8,736 nucleotides of DNA from a virus (lineage: Duplodnaviria > Heunggongvirae > Uroviricota > Caudoviricetes), in the IMG/VR virus record IMGVR_UViG_2778261227_000012. One strand, 5' to 3'. Below, piece after piece: positions 1 through 8,736 of this stretch (positions within the stretch are counted from its first letter, which is position 1; every line of letters begins with the position of its first letter). A program made the translations under genes and the position numbers. The notes below the pieces were generated by a model. That model saw nothing but the letters and a program-made list of their open reading frames with translations, ran no database searches and was not told the DNA's origin.

Positions 1-29
1 GTACTTTCACCGCCTGATTTCATTACTGC

Positions 30-51
30 AAATGCCCCTGCGGGGGCATTT
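30..51 (+). terminator. Candidate stem-loop (9-bp perfect inverted repeat AAATGCCCC/GGGGCATTT, 4-nt loop) followed by a weak T-rich tract; possible terminator of an upstream gene outside the window
   Basis: Inverted repeat read directly at 30-38 and 43-51; the T-tract is short (TTTAT), so the terminator call is weak. Confidence 0.3.
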
Positions 52-145
52 ATGGAAACGTAATTAACTCAATAATCACCGGATGGTGAGAGCTTCCTTT
101 TAGCAGAATTCAGCGCGGTGCAGCGCATATAAAGTGGAGAACGAA

Positions 146-682
146 ATGTCATTTATTAAAACTTTTTCCGGGAAGCATTTTTATTATGACAAGATAAATA
201 AAGACGACATCGTGATTAACGATATCGCAGTTTCCCTTTCAAATATCTGTCGCTTTGCAGGACATCTTTCACACTTCTACAGCGTCGCCCAGCATGCGGT
301 GCTTTGCAGCCAGCTGGTACCGCAGGAATTTGCTTTTGAAGCGTTAATGCATGATGCAACAGAAGCATATTGCCAGGACATCCCCGCTCCACTGAAACGC
401 CTTCTTCCTGACTATAAACGGATGGAAGAAAAAATAGATGCCGTAATCCGTGAGAAATACGGGTTACCCCAGGTTATGAGCACGCCTGTGAAATATGCCG
501 ATCTCATCATGCTGGCAACCGAACGCCGCGATCTCGGGCTTGATGATGGCTCTTTCTGGCCTGTACTGGAAGGCATCCCGGCAACAGAGATGTTCAACGT
601 GATTCCACTGGCACCGGGCCATGCCTACGGGATGTTTATGGAACGTTTTAACGAGTTATCGGAGTTACGCAAATGCGCATGA
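146..682 (+). CDS. HD-domain metal-dependent phosphohydrolase (YfdR-like 5'-deoxynucleotidase family), prophage early-region gene
   Basis: ORF track 134..682; I place the start at ATG 146 (GGAGA 6 nt upstream) rather than GTG 134. Product contains an H...HD motif (AGHLSH...LMHDATEAY) typical of the HD phosphohydrolase superfamily. Named by motif and recollection, not by search. Confidence 0.6.
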   Translation: MSFIKTFSGKHFYYDKINKDDIVINDIAVSLSNICRFAGHLSHFYSVAQHAVLCSQLVPQEFAFEALMHDATEAYCQDIPAPLKRLLPDYKRMEEKIDAVIREKYGLPQVMSTPVKYADLIMLATERRDLGLDDGSFWPVLEGIPATEMFNVIPLAPGHAYGMFMERFNELSELRKCA

Positions 683-1035
683 ATGTTTTCGAAATGGAAG
701 GGTTTCTTCGTGGGAGATGTGTACCGCGAGATCTGAAAGTGAATGAAACAGATGCTGAATACCTGGTACGTAAATTCGATGCGCTTGAAGCTAAATGTGC
801 AGCACTGGAAAACAAAGTAATACCAGTGTCAGCTGAACTGCCGCCAGCAAATGAAAGTGTTCTGTTATTTGATGCTAATGGAGAAGGCTGGCTGATTGGC
901 TGGCGTTCTCTCTGGTACACATGGGGGCAAAAAGAAACCGGAGAATGGCAGTGGACATTTCAGGTCGGGGACCTTGAAAACGTCAATATCACTCACTGGG
1001 CAGTAATGCCGAAAGCACCAGAGACTAAGAAATGA
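673..1035 (+). CDS. Hypothetical prophage protein (YfdS-like, 120 aa), Trp-rich C-terminus
   Basis: ORF with GGAG 8 nt upstream of ATG 673; overlaps the stop of the preceding gene by 10 nt (translational coupling); no recognisable catalytic motif. Confidence 0.45.
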   Translation: MRMNVFEMEGFLRGRCVPRDLKVNETDAEYLVRKFDALEAKCAALENKVIPVSAELPPANESVLLFDANGEGWLIGWRSLWYTWGQKETGEWQWTFQVGDLENVNITHWAVMPKAPETKK

Positions 1036-1247
1036 GCGTGATAAAAACTCATACAGGAATTGTTATCACCCGAGACGGTGAAAAGCGGATGAAATTACAT
1101 TCCACTGAAACGTCCTGGGTTGCCGGACGTTGTGAATCCTACGACAAAAAGACTGGTTACCGTTGGGGTGCACCTAACATGCGTCGCCGTCTGCTACTGG
1201 ACAGCATCAGGCCAATAAAACAGGTAGCAACCAGGGAACAAAATTAA
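1032..1247 (+). CDS. Small hypothetical prophage protein (71 aa)
   Basis: ATGA start/stop overlap with the upstream ORF (1032-1035) suggests coupling in the same operon; basic small protein, function unknown. Confidence 0.35.
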   Translation: MSVIKTHTGIVITRDGEKRMKLHSTETSWVAGRCESYDKKTGYRWGAPNMRRRLLLDSIRPIKQVATREQN

Positions 1248-1294
1248 TTATCAGGACTGGAATTTGATATTACTGCCCGTGTGCAGCGGGCTAA

Positions 1295-1513
1295 GTGGAG
1301 AAACATATGCTGAACCTCGATTGTGTTCCAATCTCAACTTATTGCAAAGAAACTGGCGAAACTCCTGAAGCAATAAACAAACGTGTACAGCGCGGTGTTT
1401 GGCGTGAAGGTGTTCAGGTTTTAAAGGTTGAAGGCGTTAAGGAGAGGTGGATTGATCTTAGTGAGGTTGCAAAATGGGCCAGACAAAACTGCTCAAACTA
1501 CCGCGCGGCGTAA
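1295..1513 (+). CDS. Excisionase-like / small DNA-binding recombination directionality factor candidate
   Basis: 72-aa ORF immediately upstream of and overlapping the integrase start (ATG 1474) by 40 nt, the typical xis-int arrangement; GGAG 8 nt upstream of ATG 1295; basic, Trp-containing pattern (RVQRGVWREG...ERWIDLSEVAKW) resembles Xis/AlpA-type winged-helix proteins. Assignment by context and pattern only. Confidence 0.45.
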   Translation: MEKHMLNLDCVPISTYCKETGETPEAINKRVQRGVWREGVQVLKVEGVKERWIDLSEVAKWARQNCSNYRAA

Positions 1514-2640
1514 CAATCAGGAAACACCGCTAGGGCGAAACGATCAATATAACTTTCACCTACAAAGGAGTTAAATGTCGTGAGCCTCTTTCCAATCTGG
1601 AAGTAACACCAAAGAACATTAAATACGCCGAGCGTACACTCGGCGAAATCCATAATAAGATCGAAAGGGGAACATTCATTTATGCAGAATATTTTCCCCG
1701 TTCTGCTCGTTTGAAAATTTTTGGTAATGCTGCTGCAGGCAAAACGGTAAAGATGTACCTGGACGAATATCTTGAAATCTGCGAAACAAGAAAACTTTCA
1801 CCCTCTACGATTGGTGGCTATAAAAAATGCCGTAGTGCGTTAGCCTCACTTCACATTTGCCCTGCAAGTGAATTAACACCAGCAATCCTGAAAGCGTGGA
1901 TTCAAAGCCAGAAAACGACCTTAAAAACAATTCGCAACCAGTTATCTTTCCTGCGGTCAGCACTTGATGAAGCCGTAACCGATGGGGTACTTCAAATTAA
2001 CCCCGTATCGTTGGTAACTGCTTCGCGCTACCAAAGTGATAAGTCAGAAGCAGAAAGCAGCTATGTGGTTGATCCGCTATCACCAGCAGAAGTTGATGCA
2101 TTACTAGCAGCAGCCGGAAACAAACAATGGGAAAATCTGTTCCGGTTCGCCATACATACAGGCCTGCGTAGTTCTGAATTATGTGCCCTACGATGGCATG
2201 ATATCGACTTTGTTGGAAAAACAGCCCATGTTCAGAGCGCAAGTGTTGTCGGAGTTATCAAAGGAACAAAGACAAAAGCCGGTACCCGTAAAGTTGAACT
2301 GACTGAAGAAGCAATGTTGGCGTTGATAAACCAGAAGCCATTTACATTCATGAAGGATGCTACTGTCTTTGAAGATCCAAAGACCAATAAACCCTGGGCA
2401 AGTGCTGATGCAATTAGGAAAAAAGCATGGGTGCCAACATTGCGAAAAGCAGGTATTCGTTACAGAAACCCATATCAAACCAGGCATACATTCGCCACCA
2501 GACATATCAGCCGGGGAGCAAACCTGTTTTGGCTTGCAGCTCAAATGGGGCATAAAGGGCCTGAGATGCTTTTCAGGCACTATGGCTCATATCTGAAGGA
2601 ATATGATGGACAAACAAGCTTGAAGAAGATAACAATATAA
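1474..2640 (+). pseudogene. Tyrosine recombinase (phage integrase with N-terminal arm-DNA-binding domain) interrupted by an in-frame amber codon TAG at 1531-1533 (codon 20)
   Basis: Frame 1 from ATG 1474 reads MGQTKLLKLPRGVTIRKHR-TAG-GETINITFTYKGVKCREPLSNLEVTPKNIKYAERTLGEIHNKIERGTFIYAEYFPRSAR..., the conserved N-terminal pattern of this integrase family (KLPxGVxIR...I.I.F.Y.G.RCRE.L...N.K.AE.....I..G.F.Y...FP.S), continuous across the stop. Downstream catalytic region looks intact (LRSSELCALRWHDIDF; RHTFATRH; MGHK; RHYGSYL with Tyr). The ORF-track start at 1711 is a TTG with no upstream ATG/GTG in frame. Confidence 0.6.
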
Positions 2641-2657
2641 TCCAAGCATGAAACTAT

Positions 2658-2676
2658 TGGCCACAATTTGTGGCCA
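2658..2676. promoter_or_regulatory. Perfect 9-bp inverted repeat TGGCCACAA-T-TTGTGGCCA followed by TTTT; candidate operator or weak terminator between the integrase and the ATPase gene
   Basis: Read directly; lies 18 nt after the integrase stop and 23 nt before ATG 2699; the 9-mer TGGCCACAA recurs at 4457-4465. Confidence 0.4.
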
Positions 2677-2698
2677 TTTTACGGAGCAAGATAGAAAC

Positions 2699-4432
2699 AT
2701 GGCAAATCAAATTACCAAACTAAAAAATATAAATGTTGTGAAGTTTCGCGGACTGAAAAATATAAACATCGAGTTTGGTTCTCGCCTAACTGTTATTTGT
2801 GGTAAAAATGGCACATCTAAATCCACAATTCTTGGCATTATCGCCCAAATATTTAGCTTTACAAAGGACTTTACCAAAAACCCTGAGACTGATTTAACAC
2901 AATATAAAACATTAACAAATGGCAGCTTCAAGTCAGCTTTCAGCGAACATTTTAGGCTTTCAGAACAATTTGATGTTCCTGGTTCAATGGACGTCAAAAT
3001 TAGTGTCTATGATGGTGCATCGAACAAACATCTTGAAAAACTAACATTAGGTTTATACAGCTACAGTGACAGAGATAAATCAAGGCCTGTAGTCAGGGGA
3101 AATGATTCAATACCGGAAAAAAACCAAAGTAGAAACGTTACTCATCCTGTTATTTTTTTAAGCTTAGCACGACTTCTTCCTATTACATTAAGGACTGATT
3201 ACTCAACACGGGATGTTCAGTACATCAATGAAAATTCTGATGAAATCAGAATGATGAGTAACCAACTCTTACTAAAAAACAATGGAAGCTCAGTAACAGC
3301 AACAAAAGGTACTATCGATTCAATGGTTGTCCATGGTGACAATTATGATCACCAATCAGTATCTGTTGGTGAAGATAATGTTGGACAATTAATCCAAGCA
3401 ATTTTTTCATTTAAAAGATTGAAGGAAACTTATTCTGATTATCATGGCGGAATATTGTTAATTGATGAAGCCGATGCAGGTCTTTTCCCTGCTGCACAGT
3501 TAGAGCTAATTAATATTCTAACTAAAGCAGCAAAACAATACGATCTGCAAATAATCATGACCTCGCACTCTCCATTAATAATAGAGGATATCTATAATCG
3601 TTCAAAACAAGATAGTGATAGCTTTAAAACAATATATCTTACAGACACATATGGAGATATTAAAACAAAGAATAATCTTTCATGGACAGATATCCACGCT
3701 GATTTACATGTTGAAACTGTAAAAATTAATGATGACATTTGTCTTCCAAAGGCAAATGTATATTTTGAAGACAAAGAAGGTTTCGACTTTTTCAAACAAT
3801 TGATAACAGATCGAAAAATAAATAAAATATTAAATCCATTAGGGAATATAAATATTAGCTGCTCTGCCATGCTTGACTTAATGGCAAGAAAAATACCAGA
3901 ATTTACAGCTAAAAGCTTGATCGTCTTAGACGGTGATGTTGTTCACGACAATAGTGCTAATGCAAAAAAAGCCAAAAAAGAAAAAAACTTATGTTTGCTT
4001 CCAAGCACCTTACCTCCAGACCAAATGATTTTTGAGTTTTTATATAATTTACCACCTGATGATGCATATTGGGAAAATAAAAATAAATTTACAAAAGCTG
4101 TTTTTATGAAAACAGCTAAAGACATAATTGCAACGCTAAAGATTGGTAACGCTCCGATTGATTTAAAAATCCTTATAGATAATTATAAAAAAGTTAACAA
4201 AAACCATGGCGGGATAGTTAGAAAACTGTTTAAAGATTTTGCACATACGACTCAATTTCAGGCCCAAGTAAAAGGGCGAGTTAAAGATAACCCATATCGA
4301 TATTGGGTCGAGAAAAATCCTGTGCAATCGGATAGCTTCAAGAATGAACTAATAAAGAGTCTTAAAGTTATTATGACAAGTGGACATGGTGTCGATTCTG
4401 CTACCATCTCATCATATCTGTCAGATAACTAA
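2699..4432 (+). CDS. OLD-family (overcoming lysogenization defect-like) nuclease: N-terminal ABC/AAA_21-type ATPase fused to C-terminal TOPRIM-like domain; candidate anti-phage defence protein
   Basis: Walker A LTVICGKNGTSKSTIL; Walker B GGILLIDEADAGLF; H-loop-like IIMTSHSP; C-terminal TOPRIM-like acidic motifs VYFEDKEGFD and SLIVLDGDVV (DxD). Start chosen at ATG 2699 (GGAG 13 nt upstream; N-terminus then matches the usual IxKLxIxNFRGxK lead-in), but ATG 2648 (ORF-track start) cannot be excluded. Gene is visibly AT-rich relative to flanks. Confidence 0.65.
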   Translation: MANQITKLKNINVVKFRGLKNINIEFGSRLTVICGKNGTSKSTILGIIAQIFSFTKDFTKNPETDLTQYKTLTNGSFKSAFSEHFRLSEQFDVPGSMDVKISVYDGASNKHLEKLTLGLYSYSDRDKSRPVVRGNDSIPEKNQSRNVTHPVIFLSLARLLPITLRTDYSTRDVQYINENSDEIRMMSNQLLLKNNGSSVTATKGTIDSMVVHGDNYDHQSVSVGEDNVGQLIQAIFSFKRLKETYSDYHGGILLIDEADAGLFPAAQLELINILTKAAKQYDLQIIMTSHSPLIIEDIYNRSKQDSDSFKTIYLTDTYGDIKTKNNLSWTDIHADLHVETVKINDDICLPKANVYFEDKEGFDFFKQLITDRKINKILNPLGNINISCSAMLDLMARKIPEFTAKSLIVLDGDVVHDNSANAKKAKKEKNLCLLPSTLPPDQMIFEFLYNLPPDDAYWENKNKFTKAVFMKTAKDIIATLKIGNAPIDLKILIDNYKKVNKNHGGIVRKLFKDFAHTTQFQAQVKGRVKDNPYRYWVEKNPVQSDSFKNELIKSLKVIMTSGHGVDSATISSYLSDN

Positions 4433-4440
4433 TTGATTAA

Positions 4441-4479
4441 AAAGGGCTTTATGTGATGGCCACAAAGCCCTTTTTTTGA
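4441..4479 (+). terminator. Rho-independent terminator: 10-bp stem AAAGGGCTTT/AAAGCCCTTT, 13-nt loop, T6 tail
   Basis: Read directly; lies 9 nt after the ATPase stop; the loop contains TGGCCACAA. Confidence 0.6.
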
Positions 4480-4511
4480 TATACTTTAGATCTGACATTT
4501 AGAGGTATCAT

Positions 4512-5411
4512 ATGCGTTTTAACACCCCACTTCGCTATCCTGGCGGTAAAGGCAAGCTTGCAAATTTCATGCTTCGGCTTATTGAAGAAAATAATCTTTC
4601 GCCTATACATTATGCCGAACCATATGCTGGGGGTGCTGGTTTAGCATTGAAACTGTTACATCTAAATGCAGCTGAAAAAATCATCCTTAATGATATTAAT
4701 ATTTCTGTTTATGCTTTTTGGCACAGTGTATTAAATCATGCAGATCAATTATGTTCTTTAATTGAAAGAACTGAAGTTACAATGGATGAATGGTTTAGGC
4801 AGAAAGATATAATTAATAATCCTAAAGACCATGATCTTTTAACAATTGGTTTCTCAACCTTTTTTCTCAATAGAACAAATCGTTCTGGAATATTAAAAGG
4901 TGGAGTAATTGGCGGTAAAAATCAAGAAGGGAAATGGAAGCTTGACGCTCGCTATAATAAGAGTGATTTGATTTCTCGAATCCATAAAATATCAGAAAAT
5001 CGTCACAGAATAGATTTATATAACATGGATGCAATTGATTTCATTAAAAAAATAGTTATTCAATTGCCACAAAACTCATTAACATATTTGGATCCACCTT
5101 ATTACATAAAAGGTAAAGGTTTATATATCAACCATTATAATCATGATGATCATGTTAGGGTTGCAAAAGTCGTACAGAATAATATTAAAACACCTTGGAT
5201 TGTTTCTTACGATAACACTCCTGAGATCCAAGCTATGTATAAGACATCATCATTAGTATATGGAATAAACTACAGTGCTCAAGATCGGTACAAAGGATCT
5301 GAGGTAATGTTCTTCAGTGAACGATTGAAAATCTTTAAAACAGATGATCCAACTAAGGTAAAAGCGCCTGTATTTAAAAGAGGATGTGTTGACGACCACA
5401 TCCAGACATAA
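4512..5411 (+). CDS. Dam-family (D12 class, alpha-type) DNA N6-adenine methyltransferase
   Basis: Motifs in the order of Dam-family enzymes: RYPGGKGKL (Dam WAGGK-like), EPYAGGAG (AdoMet-binding FxGxG), FFLNRTNRSG (Dam LNRxGxNG-like), LTYLDPPYY (catalytic DPPY); AGAGG RBS 7 nt upstream of ATG; AT-rich. Confidence 0.8.
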   Translation: MRFNTPLRYPGGKGKLANFMLRLIEENNLSPIHYAEPYAGGAGLALKLLHLNAAEKIILNDINISVYAFWHSVLNHADQLCSLIERTEVTMDEWFRQKDIINNPKDHDLLTIGFSTFFLNRTNRSGILKGGVIGGKNQEGKWKLDARYNKSDLISRIHKISENRHRIDLYNMDAIDFIKKIVIQLPQNSLTYLDPPYYIKGKGLYINHYNHDDHVRVAKVVQNNIKTPWIVSYDNTPEIQAMYKTSSLVYGINYSAQDRYKGSEVMFFSERLKIFKTDDPTKVKAPVFKRGCVDDHIQT

Positions 5412-5484
5412 AAGGAGCCGCAAAAGATCCGCAGAATAAAATGGTTAGTATTAATCGTTTTATTTCAGCTAATTATAAAAATAC

Positions 5485-5721: not shown

Positions 5722-6777
5722 ATGGCAAGACAAACCAAACCTCTATCCGTTAAAGAAATAGAATCAGCCAAACCCAAGGAGGCGGACTACGTTCTCTATG
5801 ATGGCGATGGCCTTGAGCTACTCATTAAATCCAGCGGGAGTAAAATCTGGCAGTTTCGCTACATTCGCCCTGTCACCAAGAAACGAGCAAAGAAGAGCAT
5901 AGGCTCCTACCCGTCAGTTACCCTTGCCGATGCCAGAAACTACCGTGCAGAGTCCCGCTCACTACTGGCTAAACAGATCGATCCGCAGGAACATCAGCAA
6001 GAACAATTGCGCAGTTCGCTGGAAGCCAAAACCAACACTTTCCAACTCGTAGCTGAACGTTGGTGGAATGTGAAGAAAGCCAGTGTGACAGAGGACTATG
6101 CGGAAGATATCTGGCGCTCTCTTGAAAGAGACGTCTTTCCTGCGATTGGCGACGTTAGCGTTACAGATATTAAAGCTCATACACTGGTTCAGGCCGTACA
6201 ACCGGTTCAGGCCAGAGGAGCACTGGAAACTGTTCGTCGCCTGTGCCAACGTATTAATGAGGTCATGATCTATGCCCAGAACACAGGGCTGATTGATGCT
6301 GTTCCCAGCGTTAATATCGGTAAAGCCTTCGAGAAGCCTCAGAAAAAGAACATGCCCAGCATTCGACCGGATCAGCTACCTCAGTTAATGCAGACGATGC
6401 GAACAGCCAGCATTAGCCTTTCCACACGCTGCCTGTTCATGTGGCAACTTCTTACTATTACCCGCCCTGCCGAAGCGGCTGAAGCTCTCTGGGAAGAGGT
6501 AGACATAGAAGCGCGAGAGTGGAAGATTCCTGCAGCACGCATGAAAATGAACCGCGACCATACTGTTCCATTGTCAGATGAAGCAATTGCGATACTAGAG
6601 ATGATGAAGCCGTTAAGTGGAAATCGAGAATTTATCTTTCCCAGCCGCATCAAGCCAAACCAGCCGATGAACAGTCAGACCGTAAACGCATCGCTAAAAC
6701 GCGCAGGTTTTGGTGGGGTGCTCGTTTCACACGGCCTGCGATCTATCGCCAGTACAGCCCTTAATGAGCAGGGATGA
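5722..6777 (+). pseudogene. P4/CP4-57 (IntA)-type tyrosine integrase, C-terminally truncated (ends ...SHGLRSIASTALNEQG, before the catalytic tyrosine)
   Basis: N-terminus MARQTKPLSVKEIESAKPKEADYVLYDGDGLELLIKSSGSKIWQFRY is the hallmark of P4-family integrases that follow tRNA/tmRNA genes; the H-G-L-R box is present, but the ORF stops before the conserved downstream segment with the second His and active-site Tyr. No other frame continues the homology, so this is truncation or replacement, not a simple frameshift. Confidence 0.6.
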
Positions 6778-6852
6778 TGCGCCGCGCGATAAACGTACCT
6801 ATTTCCGTGAGATAAATTACATCGCCGCGGCATTTCAATATCAGAAAAAGAA

Positions 6853-7425
6853 TTACAAATCAGCTTGAGTTTGAAGTTCCTCTACAGGGTGATAACGATA
6901 AATCGTCGATATACCGATATCGTAAATAATTGCCAACTGTTTCCTGCTATAGCCATTTTTGATCAGCCTTGCTATTTGTTCATGTTGCTCTTTTGTCAGT
7001 TTCGGACGACGTCCACCAATACGCCCCTGTGCACGTGCTGCTTCAAGTCCGGCCAGTGTTCGTTCAACTATTAATTCACGCTCCATTTCCGCTAAAGCCC
7101 CCATGACGTGAAAAAAGAAACGTCCCATGGGTGTTGACGTATCAATGCTGTCTGTAAGACTACGGAAGTTAACCCCTTTTTCCCGCAGTTCCTCAATAAG
7201 AGTGATGAGGTGTTTCATGCTTCTGCCCAGCCTGTCCAGCTTCCAGACAACGAGCGTATCTCCTTCTGATAACGTTCTGAGCAGCTTTTTCAATCCCGGT
7301 CGGGCTGACTTTGTTCCGCTGATTTTATCCTCAAAAATCAGTTCACATCCTGCGCAGTTCAGTGCGTTTCGTTGTAAATCTGTATTCTGGTCATTTGTTG
7401 ACACACGAATGTAGCCAATTTGCAT
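6853..7425 (-). CDS. Serine recombinase, DNA invertase of the Hin/Gin/Pin/Cin family
   Basis: N-terminus MQIGYIRVSTNDQNTDLQRNAL with catalytic Ser in YIRVSTNDQ; conserved LVVWKLDRLGRS, GRFFFHVMGALAEMERELIVERT, C-terminal HTH (ISTIYRY). True start is the internal ATG at 7425-7423 (AAGAGGA RBS upstream on the minus strand); the 65-codon N-terminal extension in the ORF track is not family-like. Confidence 0.85.
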   Translation of the reverse strand: MQIGYIRVSTNDQNTDLQRNALNCAGCELIFEDKISGTKSARPGLKKLLRTLSEGDTLVVWKLDRLGRSMKHLITLIEELREKGVNFRSLTDSIDTSTPMGRFFFHVMGALAEMERELIVERTLAGLEAARAQGRIGGRRPKLTKEQHEQIARLIKNGYSRKQLAIIYDIGISTIYRYHPVEELQTQADL

Positions 7426-7477
7426 GAAAAATATCCTCTTTGTTTTGTTAAAAATACATAGCTGGTATAGGTGGGAG

Positions 7478-7503
7478 TTAAGACGAAAACGTTGGTTTGG
7501 GGG
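7478..7503. promoter_or_regulatory. Candidate invertase crossover site (AAACGTTGGTTT core, resembling the AAACC-NN-GGTTT core of hix/gix sites), overlapping the start of cassette 1 and lying about 55 bp upstream of the invertase start
   Basis: Sequence AGACGAAAACGTTGGTTTGGGGGAAGG; the same core recurs at the start of cassettes 2 and 3 (about 7962-7987 and 8562-8587). Half-site symmetry is imperfect; exact boundaries are uncertain. Confidence 0.3.
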
Positions 7504-7964
7504 AAGGCTCGGCGCTGCCCGTTGGTGTGCCTGTTCCGTGGCCCTCAGCCACACCACCAACGGGCTGGCTGAAATGTAACGGTGCAGCATTTTCTTCTGA
7601 AATGTATCCCAAACTGGCAAAAGCTTACCCCACCAATAAATTACCGGATTTACGGGGTGAATTTATTCGTGGCTGGGATGATGGGCGGGGAATTGATAAT
7701 AGACGCAACCTACTGTCTGCACAGTCTGACACTATTCAGAATATAGTTGGCACTTTTGGACGAACTCAGCTTTTTAAAGATGCTTTAAATTCAGGGCCAT
7801 TTAGTCAAACTGACTCTATATTATCAGTAGGCTTGCAACCAACTGAGAGTATTGAAGGATATGGCGCCTCTGTATGGACATTCGACGCCTCTCGCTCAGT
7901 TCGCACAGCATCTGAAACACGTCCTCGTAACATTGCGTTTAATTACATCGTAAGGGCGGCATAG
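7482..7964 (+). CDS. Tail-fibre C-terminal cassette 1 (phage tail collar domain + variable receptor-binding core + conserved ...ETRPRNIAFNYIVRAA end); promoterless, no ATG start
   Basis: Open in frame from 7482; conserved motifs PWPSATPPTGWLKCNGAAFSSEMYP...LPDLRGEFIRGWDDGRG (tail collar) and NIAFNYIVRAA (P2 H / T-even fibre-type C-terminus); no ATG or RBS, begins 56 nt from the divergent invertase start. Confidence 0.6.
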   Translation, partial: DENVGLGEGSALPVGVPVPWPSATPPTGWLKCNGAAFSSEMYPKLAKAYPTNKLPDLRGEFIRGWDDGRGIDNRRNLLSAQSDTIQNIVGTFGRTQLFKDALNSGPFSQTDSILSVGLQPTESIEGYGASVWTFDASRSVRTASETRPRNIAFNYIVRAA

Positions 7965-8565
7965 AAACGTTGGTTTGGGGGAAGGCTCTGCACTGCCCGT
8001 TGGTGTGCCTGTTCCGTGGCCCTCAGCCACACCGCCAACAGGGTGGCTGAAATGTAACGGCGCAGCATTTTCTTCTGAAATGTACCCCAATCTGGCACAG
8101 GCTTACCCCACGAATAAATTACCGGATTTACGCGGTGAATTTATCCGTGGCTGGGATGACGGACGTGGCGTGGATGCGTGGCGAACATTACTGAGTGCTC
8201 AGGATTTTGCGTTTGAAGATCATGCTCTGGGGCTACCTACCAATCAGGGATATGCAGGTATTGAGAAAGGTAGCACTGAAAATGATGTTTATGCCGCTTT
8301 CTCTGATGGCATGCACTATACAGGGAATGTAACCAGTAGCGGTCAATGGGATGATTATTCTCAGTCAAAAATTTATATCCGTAGTGATGGTAAGCCTGTC
8401 GGAAATAATATTGAGTTAGCTAACTCAAGTGAGGCTTTGCGTTCTTCTTTGCGTACTTATAGAGCCAGTACAGGATGGTATAACCCAGGACTAAACAAAC
8501 CTAAAACAGCTACAGAAACACGTCCGCGCAACGTTGCTTTTAATTACATCGTAAGAGCCGCATGA
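7954..8565 (+). CDS. Tail-fibre C-terminal cassette 2 (same conserved collar N-block and C-terminal block, different and longer variable core); promoterless
   Basis: Open in frame from 7954, overlapping the cassette 1 stop (7962-7964) by 11 nt in another frame; conserved first ~65 codons and last ~16 codons, divergent middle. Confidence 0.6.
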   Translation, partial: GRHRNVGLGEGSALPVGVPVPWPSATPPTGWLKCNGAAFSSEMYPNLAQAYPTNKLPDLRGEFIRGWDDGRGVDAWRTLLSAQDFAFEDHALGLPTNQGYAGIEKGSTENDVYAAFSDGMHYTGNVTSSGQWDDYSQSKIYIRSDGKPVGNNIELANSSEALRSSLRTYRASTGWYNPGLNKPKTATETRPRNVAFNYIVRAA

Positions 8566-8736
8566 AAACGTTGGTTTGGGGGAAGGCTCTGCACTGCCCG
8601 TTGGTGTGCCTGTTCCGTGGCCCTCAGCCACACCGTCAACAGGGTGGCTGAAATGTAACGGCGCAGCATTTTCTTCTGAAATGTACCCCAAACTGGCACA
8701 GGCTTACCCCACCAATAAATTACCGGATTTACGGGG
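8555..8736 (+). CDS. Tail-fibre C-terminal cassette 3, partial (runs off the window end); same conserved collar N-block
   Basis: Open in frame from 8555, overlapping the cassette 2 stop (8563-8565); sequence to 8736 repeats the conserved 5' block and mixes variants seen in copies 1 and 2. Confidence 0.55.

What the first reader, a model, noticed from the sequence alone, without database searches (positions are those of the whole stretch)
6853..8736. Serine invertase divergent from a tandem direct-orientation array of promoterless tail-fibre C-terminal cassettes
Seen in sequence: a Hin/Gin/Pin-type invertase on the minus strand, then about 55 bp later the first of at least three plus-strand cassettes, each a collar domain plus variable core plus NIAFNYIVRAA end, each starting right after the previous stop, none with an ATG, RBS or intervening tail-fibre chaperone gene. 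Established: Mu G, P1 C, e14 P and p15B Min segments switch tail-fibre C-termini by inversion within the fibre gene. Unusual here: all three visible sites are direct repeats, which serine invertases do not normally recombine, and no inverted site or constant fibre 5' part is present. Inference: a multi-cassette archive whose expressed fibre gene and inverted site lie beyond the right edge, or a decayed or duplicating remnant.
Basis: partly seen in the sequence, partly recalled or inferred. Interest (0 to 1): 0.7.

Follow-up and report, generated by a model that had tools for sequence, protein, structure and literature searches.

The report
Multi-cassette phage tail-fibre inversion switch
This is one end of a Mu-like prophage carrying a well-known kind of DNA-flipping switch, which lets the phage swap the receptor-binding tip of its tail fibre among several stored versions; it is real and intact but ordinary.

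Summary
An intact 190-aa Gin/Cin-family serine invertase (7425-6853, minus strand) is followed 61 bp later by three plus-strand tail-fibre tip cassettes. Each cassette begins at an identical 21-bp crossover-site core. There is no inverted copy in the window.

The "anomaly" disappears for two reasons.
- The window is an entire 8,736-bp draft contig that ends inside the repeated block, so the right edge is an assembly break.
- In 10 genomes with the identical invertase, and in a P1-like plasmid, the same cassettes lie between the invertase and a converging fibre gene. Every array has one tail-to-tail turnaround, and all sites on the invertase side are necessarily direct repeats of one another.

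Window cassette 1 is 0-2 mismatches from copies that are archived in some strains and fused to the fibre gene in others. This is the shuffling expected of a p15B Min-type multiple-inversion system.

The module sits at the right end of a Mu-like transposable prophage, which ends at window 6775 and has inserted into an intA-type integrase gene.

Verdict: new member of a known kind, of low interest. One open point is why each array has only a single chaperone gene, which usually points against the fibre operon.

The parts
5722..6774 (+). 5' 351 codons of an intA/P4-type tyrosine integrase gene, interrupted by the prophage insertion. This is the target of the insertion, not part of the switch.
   Evidence: Pfam Arm-DNA-bind_3, Phage_int_M and Phage_integrase domains. 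The uninterrupted gene is 413 aa in E. coli NWU_3 and is 100% identical up to window 6774-6775.
6775..6852 (-). Right terminus of a Mu-like transposable prophage. Read on the minus strand it ends ...CGTTTATCGCGCGGCGCATCA. Its terminal TGA supplies the stop codon of the truncated integrase.
   Evidence: It is identical in 11 loci up to the terminal CA, after which every locus has different host DNA. It resembles the Mu right end ...CGTTTTTCGTGCGCCGCTTCA. The complete 38-kb prophage has Mor, Gam, a DDE transposase and a MuB-like ATPase, and a 5-6 bp target duplication.
6853..7425 (-). Serine DNA invertase gene (190 aa plus stop) of the Gin/Cin/Pin/Hin/Min group.
   Evidence: Resolvase and HTH_7 domains. 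It is 72% identical to Gin, 74% to P1 Cin and 96% to the invertase of a P1-like plasmid. The best PDB hits are Gin structures 4M6F and 3UJ3. The identical protein is on record in 1817 blocks of the assembly collection.
7336..7407 (-). Predicted recombinational (Fis) enhancer, gene nucleotides 19-90.
   Evidence: It is homologous to the enhancer annotated in the P1 record at cin nucleotides 19-90. Identity there is 81%, against 62-72% in flanking gene segments. Fis-consensus-like 15-mers lie at the same gene positions (78 and 101) as in Mu gin. This is an inference only, and it is confounded by conservation of the catalytic motif.
7426..7479 (.). Spacer between the invertase start codon and the first crossover site. 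The invertase promoter presumably lies here.
   Evidence: The 61-nt ATG-to-site distance is the same in all ten L003-L012 loci (site at 9919-9939, ATG at 10001). The simple promoter scan found no consensus promoter here.
7480..7505 (+). Crossover site 1 (26 bp, central TT at 7492-7493), proximal to the invertase.
   Evidence: It shares the core AAAC(C/G)-TT-GGTTT with P1 cixL and cixR, whose annotated crossover lies between the two central T's.
7488..7964 (+). Cassette 1 (type C0, 158 codons): a silent tail-fibre tip module made of a collar, a variable core and a closing strand.
   Evidence: Collar domain. It has 0-2 mismatches in 478 nt to copies in 7 other loci. Three of those copies are fused to the fibre gene, in L007, L009 and L012.
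7958..7983 (+). Crossover site 2 (central TT at 7970-7971). Its left half overlaps the last codons and stop codon of cassette 1.
7966..8565 (+). Cassette 2 (type C1, 199 codons): a silent tail-fibre tip module.
   Evidence: Collar domain. It aligns end to end with the T4 gp37 receptor-binding tip 2XGF, E=2.6e-15, including the C-terminal NIAFNYIVR. It has 8-9 mismatches in 601 nt to copies in L007, L010 and L012.
8559..8584 (+). Crossover site 3 (central TT at 8571-8572).
8567..8736 (+). Cassette 3, cut off by the contig end. It is probably type C17, the cassette that carries the chaperone gene.
   Evidence: Collar domain. The nearest matches are C17 copies at 1-2 mismatches in 171 nt, against 3 for C8 copies (a weak discrimination). 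The contig ends at 8736.

Best explanation
The region is the invertase-proximal half of a Min-type (p15B-like) multiple-inversion switch for the tail-fibre tip. It sits at the right end of a Mu-like transposable prophage of E. coli. The fibre gene has a short constant 5' part of 161 codons and lies beyond the contig end on the opposite strand, converging on the array. Its 3' end is whichever cassette currently follows its crossover site.

The serine invertase recombines the fibre-side sites with the oppositely oriented invertase-side sites, exchanging DNA at the central TT of a 26-bp site. It is presumably helped by a Fis-bound enhancer in the 5' part of its own gene. Each inversion spans a single tail-to-tail turnaround, moves cassettes from one side to the other, and places a new cassette in frame behind the constant part. 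With 6 sites this gives 2 x 4! x 5 = 240 arrangements.

Sites on the same side are direct repeats by construction. This class of invertase does not recombine direct repeats, so the archive is not deleted. Each cassette encodes a complete T4-gp37-like tip, and the conserved NIAFNYIVRAA end is the closing strand of the collar fold.

Shown: the anatomy, the homologies, the shuffling between strains and the exchange point. Inferred: activity in this particular strain, Fis dependence, the host-range effect, and what lies beyond the contig end.
For: Anatomy.

Context: the window is a whole contig. The identical invertase in 10 genomes sits after a tape measure, baseplate genes and a short Collar fibre gene, then cassettes, one chaperone gene and inverted cassettes, then the invertase. 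A P1-like plasmid has 5 direct cassettes plus a chaperone gene facing a convergent 2.6-kb fibre gene.

Shuffling: the same cassette types appear in different order, orientation and fused or archived state among strains. L010 and L012 differ by two inversions. Window cassette 1 is 0-2 mismatches from both archived and fused copies.

Exchange point: every fibre-linked site reads AAACC|TT and every archived site reads AAACG|TT. The same core, with an annotated crossover between the two T's, is found in P1 cix.

Orientation rule: all 10 multi-site loci read '+...+-...-' with no interleaving.

Invertase family.

Mu-like element.

Cassette fold.

Literature: the Min shufflon of p15B is a serine-invertase, multi-inversion tail-fibre system (PMC6109161). 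A Mu prophage locus and a three-repeat P2-like 'shufflon' flip within clonal E. coli cultures (PMC4272514).
Against: Nothing to the right of 8736 can be read for this genome. The fibre gene, the inverted sites and the chaperone gene are inferred from relatives, not seen. Differences between strains show past inversion but not present activity in this strain. The enhancer assignment is confounded by protein-level conservation of the same codons. The p15B sequence itself (X62121) was not available, so identity to Min proper is untested. The order of cassettes in a short-read contig that runs through 170-nt repeats could be one of several coexisting isomers, or a chimera of them.
Confidence: 0.85

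Rival explanations
1. This is an inert, decaying remnant. The invertase and the cassette array were cut off from their fibre gene, for example by the rearrangement that placed them next to a truncated integrase, and they no longer switch anything.
For: The window shows a truncated integrase directly to the left and neither a fibre gene nor an inverted site. Genuinely decayed arrays do exist, for example the frameshifted cassettes in the P2-like prophage L001.
Against: The truncated integrase is the target of the insertion, not debris from the phage. The phage terminus at 6775 is intact and identical to that in 10 other insertions. The invertase is 100% identical to a protein on record in 1817 blocks. 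Both complete cassettes are open to their conserved ends and nearly identical to fused copies elsewhere. The missing part is explained by the contig end.
Confidence: 0.07
2. The array is a tandem duplication or amplification of a single cassette by homologous recombination between the conserved blocks, not a designed archive.
For: The units are head to tail and share conserved blocks of about 170 nt at the 5' end and about 50 nt at the 3' end, which could support unequal crossing-over.
Against: The variable cores of cassettes 1 and 2 are unrelated and differ in length, at 158 versus 199 codons. Each type recurs on its own in other genomes, in different positions and orientations. About 20 distinct types were seen in 12 loci.
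Confidence: 0.02
3. The cassettes are separate small genes, as automatic annotation calls them ('phage tail protein' with TTG or GTG starts). On this reading, each is translated on its own and supplies alternative tip proteins without any gene fusion.
For: PGAP and other gene callers annotate them as individual CDSs.
Against: There is no ATG or convincing ribosome-binding site at the conserved start. The reading frame is open from the first base after the previous stop codon. The same cassette is found fused in frame behind a 161-codon constant part, with the junction exactly at the crossover core. The C/G marker tracks fused versus archived status without exception.
Confidence: 0.03
4. The cassette order in the window is an assembly chimera or consensus of several coexisting isomers, so the 'three in a row' layout does not exist as such on any one molecule.
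For: It is a short-read draft contig that reads through two repeats of about 170 nt and stops in the third. Among 89 related loci, 29 have contigs that break within 1.5 kb of the invertase.
Against: The repeat copies differ by several SNPs, which can guide an assembler. Runs of 4 direct cassettes next to the invertase are seen in complete, long-read-grade chromosomes, L008, L011 and L012.
Confidence: 0.1

Closest known systems
Min multiple-inversion system ('Min shufflon') of the P1-related plasmid p15B of E. coli 15T- (Sandmeier, Iida, Arber and colleagues, 1990-1992; described in PMC6109161)
   Same: Both use a serine invertase of the Gin/Cin group. Both have more than two crossover sites. 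Both have an array of promoterless 3' tail-fibre segments that can each be fused to one constant 5' part. The arrangement count for 6 sites computed from the topology seen here (240) equals the figure I recall for p15B (from memory). The window invertase is 96% identical to that of a P1-like plasmid with a 7-site array.
   Different: The host element is a Mu-like transposable prophage rather than a P1-like plasmid prophage. The constant fibre part is 161 codons, against about 700 in the P1-like plasmid. Direct comparison with the p15B sequence (X62121) was not possible with these tools.
G segment and Gin of phage Mu
   Same: Both sit at the right end of a transposable Mu-type genome. In both, the invertase is divergent from the silent cassette, with its 5' end next to the crossover site. 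The constant fibre part is short in both (about 169 codons in Mu). The invertases are 72% identical, and the terminal repeats are related.
   Different: Mu has two sites, two cassettes, and a dedicated chaperone for each (U and U'), followed by com and mom. Here there are up to 6 sites, about 20 cassette types in the population and one chaperone gene. There is no mom; the prophage ends 78 nt after the invertase stop. The central dinucleotide is TT, as in cix, not TC as in gix.
C segment and Cin of phage P1
   Same: The crossover core AAACC-TT-GGTTT and the central TT are the same. Identity to the annotated cin enhancer is 81%, and the proteins are 74% identical.
   Different: In P1 the 3' end of cin abuts cixL, and there are two sites and two cassette-chaperone pairs.
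R64-type shufflons (Rci) and the bifidobacterial phage Rin system
   Same: The logic is the same: several 3' cassettes are shuffled behind one constant 5' part by inversions between multiple sites.
   Different: Those systems use tyrosine recombinases. This one uses a serine invertase.
T4 gp37 receptor-binding tip (PDB 2XGF)
   Same: Cassette 2 aligns with it from the collar start to the C-terminal NIAFNYIVR. This explains the conserved ends and variable middle.
   Different: The variable middle is shorter and not alignable. The His-x-His repeats of the T4 needle are absent from cassette 1 and mostly absent from cassette 2.

Membership tests
Gin/Cin/Pin/Hin/Min serine DNA invertases | Small serine recombinase with an N-terminal resolvase catalytic domain containing the active-site serine and a C-terminal HTH | tested here: met
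   PF00239 at E=1.7e-51 and PF02796 at E=1.3e-13. The YIRVSTNDQ motif aligns with Gin. The top PDB hits are Gin, at E about 1e-91.
Gin/Cin/Pin/Hin/Min serine DNA invertases | 26-bp imperfectly palindromic crossover sites with a 2-bp asymmetric core | tested here: met
   The sites read AAAC(G/C)-TT-GGTTTGGGGGAA and align with cixL, cixR and gix. P1's record places the crossover between the central T's. The C/G marker places the exchange point 3' of the base before TT.
Gin/Cin/Pin/Hin/Min serine DNA invertases | Fis-dependent recombinational enhancer in cis, usually inside the 5' part of the invertase gene | tested here: inconclusive
   Identity to the annotated P1 enhancer is 81%, against 62-72% in flanking gene segments. 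Fis-like 15-mers lie at conserved positions.
Gin/Cin/Pin/Hin/Min serine DNA invertases | Catalyses inversion between inverted sites | not testable with these tools
   Only comparative evidence is available: the same cassettes are permuted and flipped among strains with the identical invertase. No reads or experiments exist for this strain.
Min-type multiple-inversion tail-fibre system (p15B) | More than two crossover sites bounding overlapping invertible segments | tested here: met
   There are 3 sites in the window, and 4-6 in nine of ten loci with the identical invertase (the tenth, L003, has two). There are 7 in the P1-like plasmid.
Min-type multiple-inversion tail-fibre system (p15B) | Cassettes are 3' gene segments that become fused to one constant 5' fibre part | tested here: inconclusive
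   This is met in relatives: C0 is fused to a 161-codon constant part in L007, L009 and L012. The fibre gene is not visible for this genome because the contig ends.
Min-type multiple-inversion tail-fibre system (p15B) | Invertase orthologous to Min of p15B | not tested
   The p15B sequence X62121 is not in the searchable collections. The invertase is 96% identical to that of a P1-like plasmid.
Mu-like transposable phages | Conserved termini ending 5'-TG...CA-3', related to the Mu ends | tested here: met
   The conserved sequence ends sharply at ...GCGCATCA in 11 loci. 17 of the last 21 nt match the Mu right end.
Mu-like transposable phages | Near-random insertion with a short target duplication | tested here: met
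   All 11 loci have different flanks. A TCCAG(C) duplication flanks the prophage in otsA of strain M-17. The duplication cannot be tested in the window because only one end is present.
Mu-like transposable phages | DDE transposase plus a MuB-like ATPase, Mor or C-type late activators, and Gam | tested here: met
   The annotated features of the complete relative L020 include Mor, the gp16 family, Gam, an ExeA-family ATPase and an integrase-catalytic-domain protein of 590 aa. These come from the record's annotation and were not re-scanned here. They are not visible for this genome.
R64-type shufflon | Rci-type tyrosine recombinase acting on sfx sites | tested here: not met
   The adjacent recombinase is a serine resolvase/invertase. 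The two tyrosine recombinases in the window belong to the islands on the left.
T4 gp37-like collar-needle-head fibre tips | Collar domain at the start and a closing C-terminal strand (...NIAFNYIVR), with an excursion between them | tested here: met
   PF07484 is present in all three cassettes. Cassette 2 residues 8-197 align to 2XGF residues 27-240.

The most novel reading that the evidence does not exclude
Min-type arrays may have spread from P1-like plasmids into Mu-like and P2-like prophages as a shared, exchangeable pool of at least 20 gp37-like tip cassettes. Most of these cassettes would work without a dedicated chaperone. The single chaperone gene belongs to one cassette only, and in most isomers it points against the fibre operon. 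If so, these would be naturally chaperone-independent, plug-in receptor-binding modules, with a built-in site for swapping them.
Probability: 0.35. Interest if true: 0.35.

Novelty: new member of a known kind. Interest (0 to 1): 0.15.

Why it matters
It matters little as a discovery. Multi-cassette tail-fibre inversion by serine invertases has been known since p15B Min, and this exact invertase is on record in 1817 blocks of the assembly collection.

It has some practical uses.
- It explains why draft assemblies break here, and why annotation pipelines list strings of small 'phage tail protein' genes that are really silent 3' cassettes.
- The orientation rule shows that 'all direct repeats next to the invertase' is the signature of such a system rather than a defect.
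- The cassette catalogue is a ready-made library of interchangeable receptor-binding tips for host-range engineering.

Tried and rejected
- **Exact-match search for the junction.** I searched for the integrase/prophage junction in the one-genome-per-species collection and found nothing. The source contig was then found through the truncated integrase protein, but it is only the window itself, so the sequence could not be extended.
- **tRNA/tmRNA scan.** I scanned the window to place the integrase's attachment site and found none.
- **Original Min papers.** I tried to read Sandmeier et al. by DOI and PMC id, and Johnson's 2015 review; none is held. Statements about p15B therefore rest on secondary descriptions and, where marked, on memory.
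- **Consensus promoter scan.** It gave no promoter for the invertase or the cassettes. The scan is too crude to count as evidence of absence.
- **Fis-site scan with the degenerate consensus.** It gives many hits and cannot decide the question.
- **Search for the prophage's left end by similarity to the right end.** This gave a spurious hit inside mor. The real left junction was then read directly.
- **Generic site pattern across species.** In 14 loci my pattern found only one site. These are limits of the pattern, not exceptions to the orientation rule.
- **Not run.** I did not run structure prediction, the large protein-database searches or the viral and metagenome scans, because the PDB sequence match and the genome contexts already answered the question.
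Full report
**1. What is in the window**

The ORF on the minus strand that begins MQIGYIRVSTNDQ runs from 7425 to 6853. It has a full resolvase catalytic domain and a resolvase HTH. It is 72% identical to Mu Gin over its whole length, 74% to P1 Cin, and 96% to the invertase of a P1-like plasmid. Its best solved relatives are the two Gin structures.

The 21-mer AAACGTTGGTTTGGGGGAAGG starts 61 nt from the ATG. It recurs at 7965 and 8566, always on the plus strand. Shuffles give zero expected matches, and no inverted copy appears even with three mismatches allowed. From each copy a conserved block of about 170-190 nt follows.

In frame from the base after each preceding stop codon, the three units encode a Phage Tail Collar domain. 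The two complete ones then have unrelated variable cores and a common ...ETRPRN(I/V)AFNYIVRAA end.

**2. Why the sequence stops**

The truncated integrase protein to the left led to the source record. The window is the whole of contig NLUL01000064.1 (8,736 bp) of assembly GCA_002232775.1. A sister assembly's contig stops 85 nt beyond the invertase start.

Among 89 invertase loci fetched from other genomes, 29 have the contig ending within 1.5 kb upstream of the invertase start. Of these, 21 end only 64-131 nt upstream, that is, at the first site. Short-read assemblies routinely break at these repeated, flippable regions. The absence of an inverted site and a fibre gene is therefore uninformative.

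**3. What lies beyond, judged from relatives**

The identical 190-aa invertase is on record in 1817 blocks of the assembly collection. The ten longest contexts (L003-L012) all show the same gene order:
- tape measure, gpU, X, D, V, W, J, I;
- a short Collar-domain fibre gene of 307-341 aa;
- further Collar cassettes;
- one tail-fibre assembly (Caudo_TAP) gene;
- oppositely oriented cassettes;
- the invertase.

A P1-like plasmid (L002) has the invertase, five direct cassettes and a chaperone gene. Facing them it has another cassette and a 2.6-kb fibre gene. A P2-like prophage (L001) has the same layout with frameshifted cassettes.

Mapping sites and clustering cassettes gives about 20 cassette types in 12 loci. 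Window cassette 1 (type C0) is 0-2 mismatches in 478 nt from copies in seven other loci. It is fused to the fibre gene in L007, L009 and L012, and archived in either orientation elsewhere. Cassette 2 (C1) recurs in L007, L010 and L012 at 8-9 mismatches in 601 nt. The arrangements of L010 and L012 differ by exactly two inversions. This is what a working multiple-inversion system leaves behind.

**4. Exchange point**

In every locus the site joined to the constant fibre part reads AAACC-TT-GGTTT. Every archived site reads AAACG-TT-GGTTT, whichever cassette follows. The left half-site therefore stays put while the right half and its cassette move, so the exchange occurs at or just after that base.

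P1's record annotates the cixL and cixR crossovers between the two T's of the same AAACC-TT-GGTTT core. The fused protein accordingly reads ...KNLGLGEGS, whereas the archived frames read NVGLGEGS.

**5. Why the visible sites are all direct**

Each array contains exactly one tail-to-tail junction without a site. It has cassette C8 on one side and the chaperone gene plus C17 (or C10) on the other. All sites on the fibre side of this turnaround point one way, and all sites on the invertase side point the other way.

An inversion between any plus/minus pair spans the turnaround and preserves this pattern. All ten multi-site loci obey it, with no interleaving. Direct orientation of everything next to the invertase is therefore obligatory, not anomalous.

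For six sites the number of arrangements is 2 x 4! x 5 = 240.

Established knowledge of Hin and Gin (from memory of the field) explains why direct sites are not recombined. The Fis/enhancer invertasome requires a particular topology, and the asymmetric core must match for religation. The archive is thus protected from deletion. A 2025 paper makes the same general point for bacterial inversion systems (PMC11850598).

**6. The element that carries it**

Beyond the invertase stop, eleven loci share 78 nt ending ...CGTTTATCGCGCGGCGCATCA and then diverge completely into different host genes. The last 21 nt match the Mu right end at 17 positions.

A complete copy in E. coli M-17 is about 38 kb and splits otsA. 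It carries Mor, gp16, Gam, a MuB-like ATPase and a DDE transposase, followed by Mu-order head and tail genes. It is flanked by a TCCAG(C) duplication. It is a Mu-like transposable prophage.

In the window it has inserted at 6774/6775 into an intA-type integrase gene. That gene is 413 aa when intact and 351 aa here, with the stop codon supplied by the phage terminus. This explains the odd neighbour on the left and removes the hint of decay.

**7. What a cassette is**

Cassette 2 aligns with the crystallised receptor-binding tip of T4 gp37 (2XGF). The alignment runs from the collar start to the C-terminal NIAFNYIVR, with E=2.6e-15. The conserved N-terminal 75 residues and the conserved last 16 residues are thus the two halves of the collar fold. 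The variable middle is the distal, receptor-contacting excursion.

The 3' conservation is therefore structural. In addition, the last codons form the left half of the next crossover site.

**8. Enhancer and expression**

The P1 record annotates the Cin enhancer at cin nucleotides 19-90. The window gene is 81% identical there, against 62-72% in flanking gene segments. It also has Fis-consensus-like 15-mers at the same positions as Mu gin. These codons also encode the catalytic motif, so the point remains an inference.

A crude promoter scan finds nothing between the cassettes. This is consistent with silent cassettes but is weak evidence.

**9. Comparison with the literature**

- The p15B Min shufflon is described as a serine-recombinase system. 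It generates multiple inversions that give variable tail fibres, and it is related to the simpler Gin and Cin systems (PMC6109161; titles of the primary papers).
- In E. coli E2348/69, a Mu prophage locus and a P2-like three-repeat 'shufflon' with three alternative C-termini were shown by sequencing and PCR to coexist as isomers in clonal cultures (PMC4272514).
- Systematic screens list tail-fibre genes and invertases among the main targets of programmed inversions (PMC9881135).
- I found no paper that describes the six-site form in Mu-like prophages specifically.
- In a one-genome-per-species sample of Enterobacterales, most relatives have the classical two-site form. The multi-site form appears mainly in E. 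coli.

**10. Verdict**

The feature is real and intact, and it is almost certainly half of a functioning Min-type switch. This is a new member of a known kind, of low interest.

One unexplained detail remains. Each array has a single chaperone gene, whose start overlaps the stop codon of cassette C17 (TAATG). In 7 of 9 multi-site Mu-like loci it points against the fibre operon. This suggests that most cassettes do not need it, or that it is transcribed from the invertase side.

Noticed in passing
window 2648-5411: An AAA ATPase of 594 aa (PtuA/GajA/AriA-like hits) is followed by a D12-class adenine methyltransferase. The methyltransferase matches PADLOC PD-Lambda-5_B over its full length (E=5e-124). 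This is probably a PD-lambda-5-type anti-phage defence pair carried on an island.
   Followed up: partly
window 1-5460: Most E. coli genomes share homology with the window only from about 5460 onward, where the integrase region begins. Eight genomes share the methylase and ATPase part as well. The left part includes a second tyrosine recombinase at 1711-2640 and an HD-domain protein at 134-682, and it looks like a second island in tandem. No tmRNA or tRNA was found in the window, although a sister contig has smpB just upstream of the same integrase (L013).
   Followed up: partly
window 6774/6775: The Mu-like prophage has inserted inside the integrase gene of the neighbouring island and removed its last 62 codons. 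This should immobilise that island. The same truncated integrase was found in only 6 contigs.
   Followed up: partly
L023-L101 (invertase loci from other species): In 29 of 89 loci the contig ends within 1.5 kb upstream of the invertase start. In 21 of them it ends just 64-131 nt upstream. This is a systematic assembly break at invertible tail-fibre regions in draft genomes.
   Followed up: yes
L004-L012, e.g. L004:8316-9446: There is only one tail-fibre assembly gene per array. It is always attached to cassette C17 (or C10) with an overlapping stop and start (TAATG), and it is always tail-to-tail with cassette C8. In 7 of 9 multi-site Mu-like loci it is antisense to the fibre operon.
   Followed up: partly
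L001:12606-16662 (E. coli VTB97432v, P2-like prophage): This locus has the same invertase family and cassette types, but several cassettes are frameshifted or truncated. The fibre and baseplate block is inverted relative to the sheath and tube block. It is a genuinely decaying or rearranged example.
   Followed up: no
L001, L002, L004-L012: The same cassette types occur in three unrelated phage backbones. C4 is found in a P2-like prophage and in Mu-like prophages, and C8, C10 and C12 in a P1-like plasmid and in Mu-like prophages. This indicates horizontal exchange of tips, or of whole arrays.
   Followed up: partly
L003:8054-9939: One genome with the 100% identical invertase has only the classical two-site arrangement. 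It has two chaperone genes and a non-Collar (Gp53-like_C) alternative tip. The same enzyme therefore serves both simple and multi-cassette layouts.
   Followed up: no
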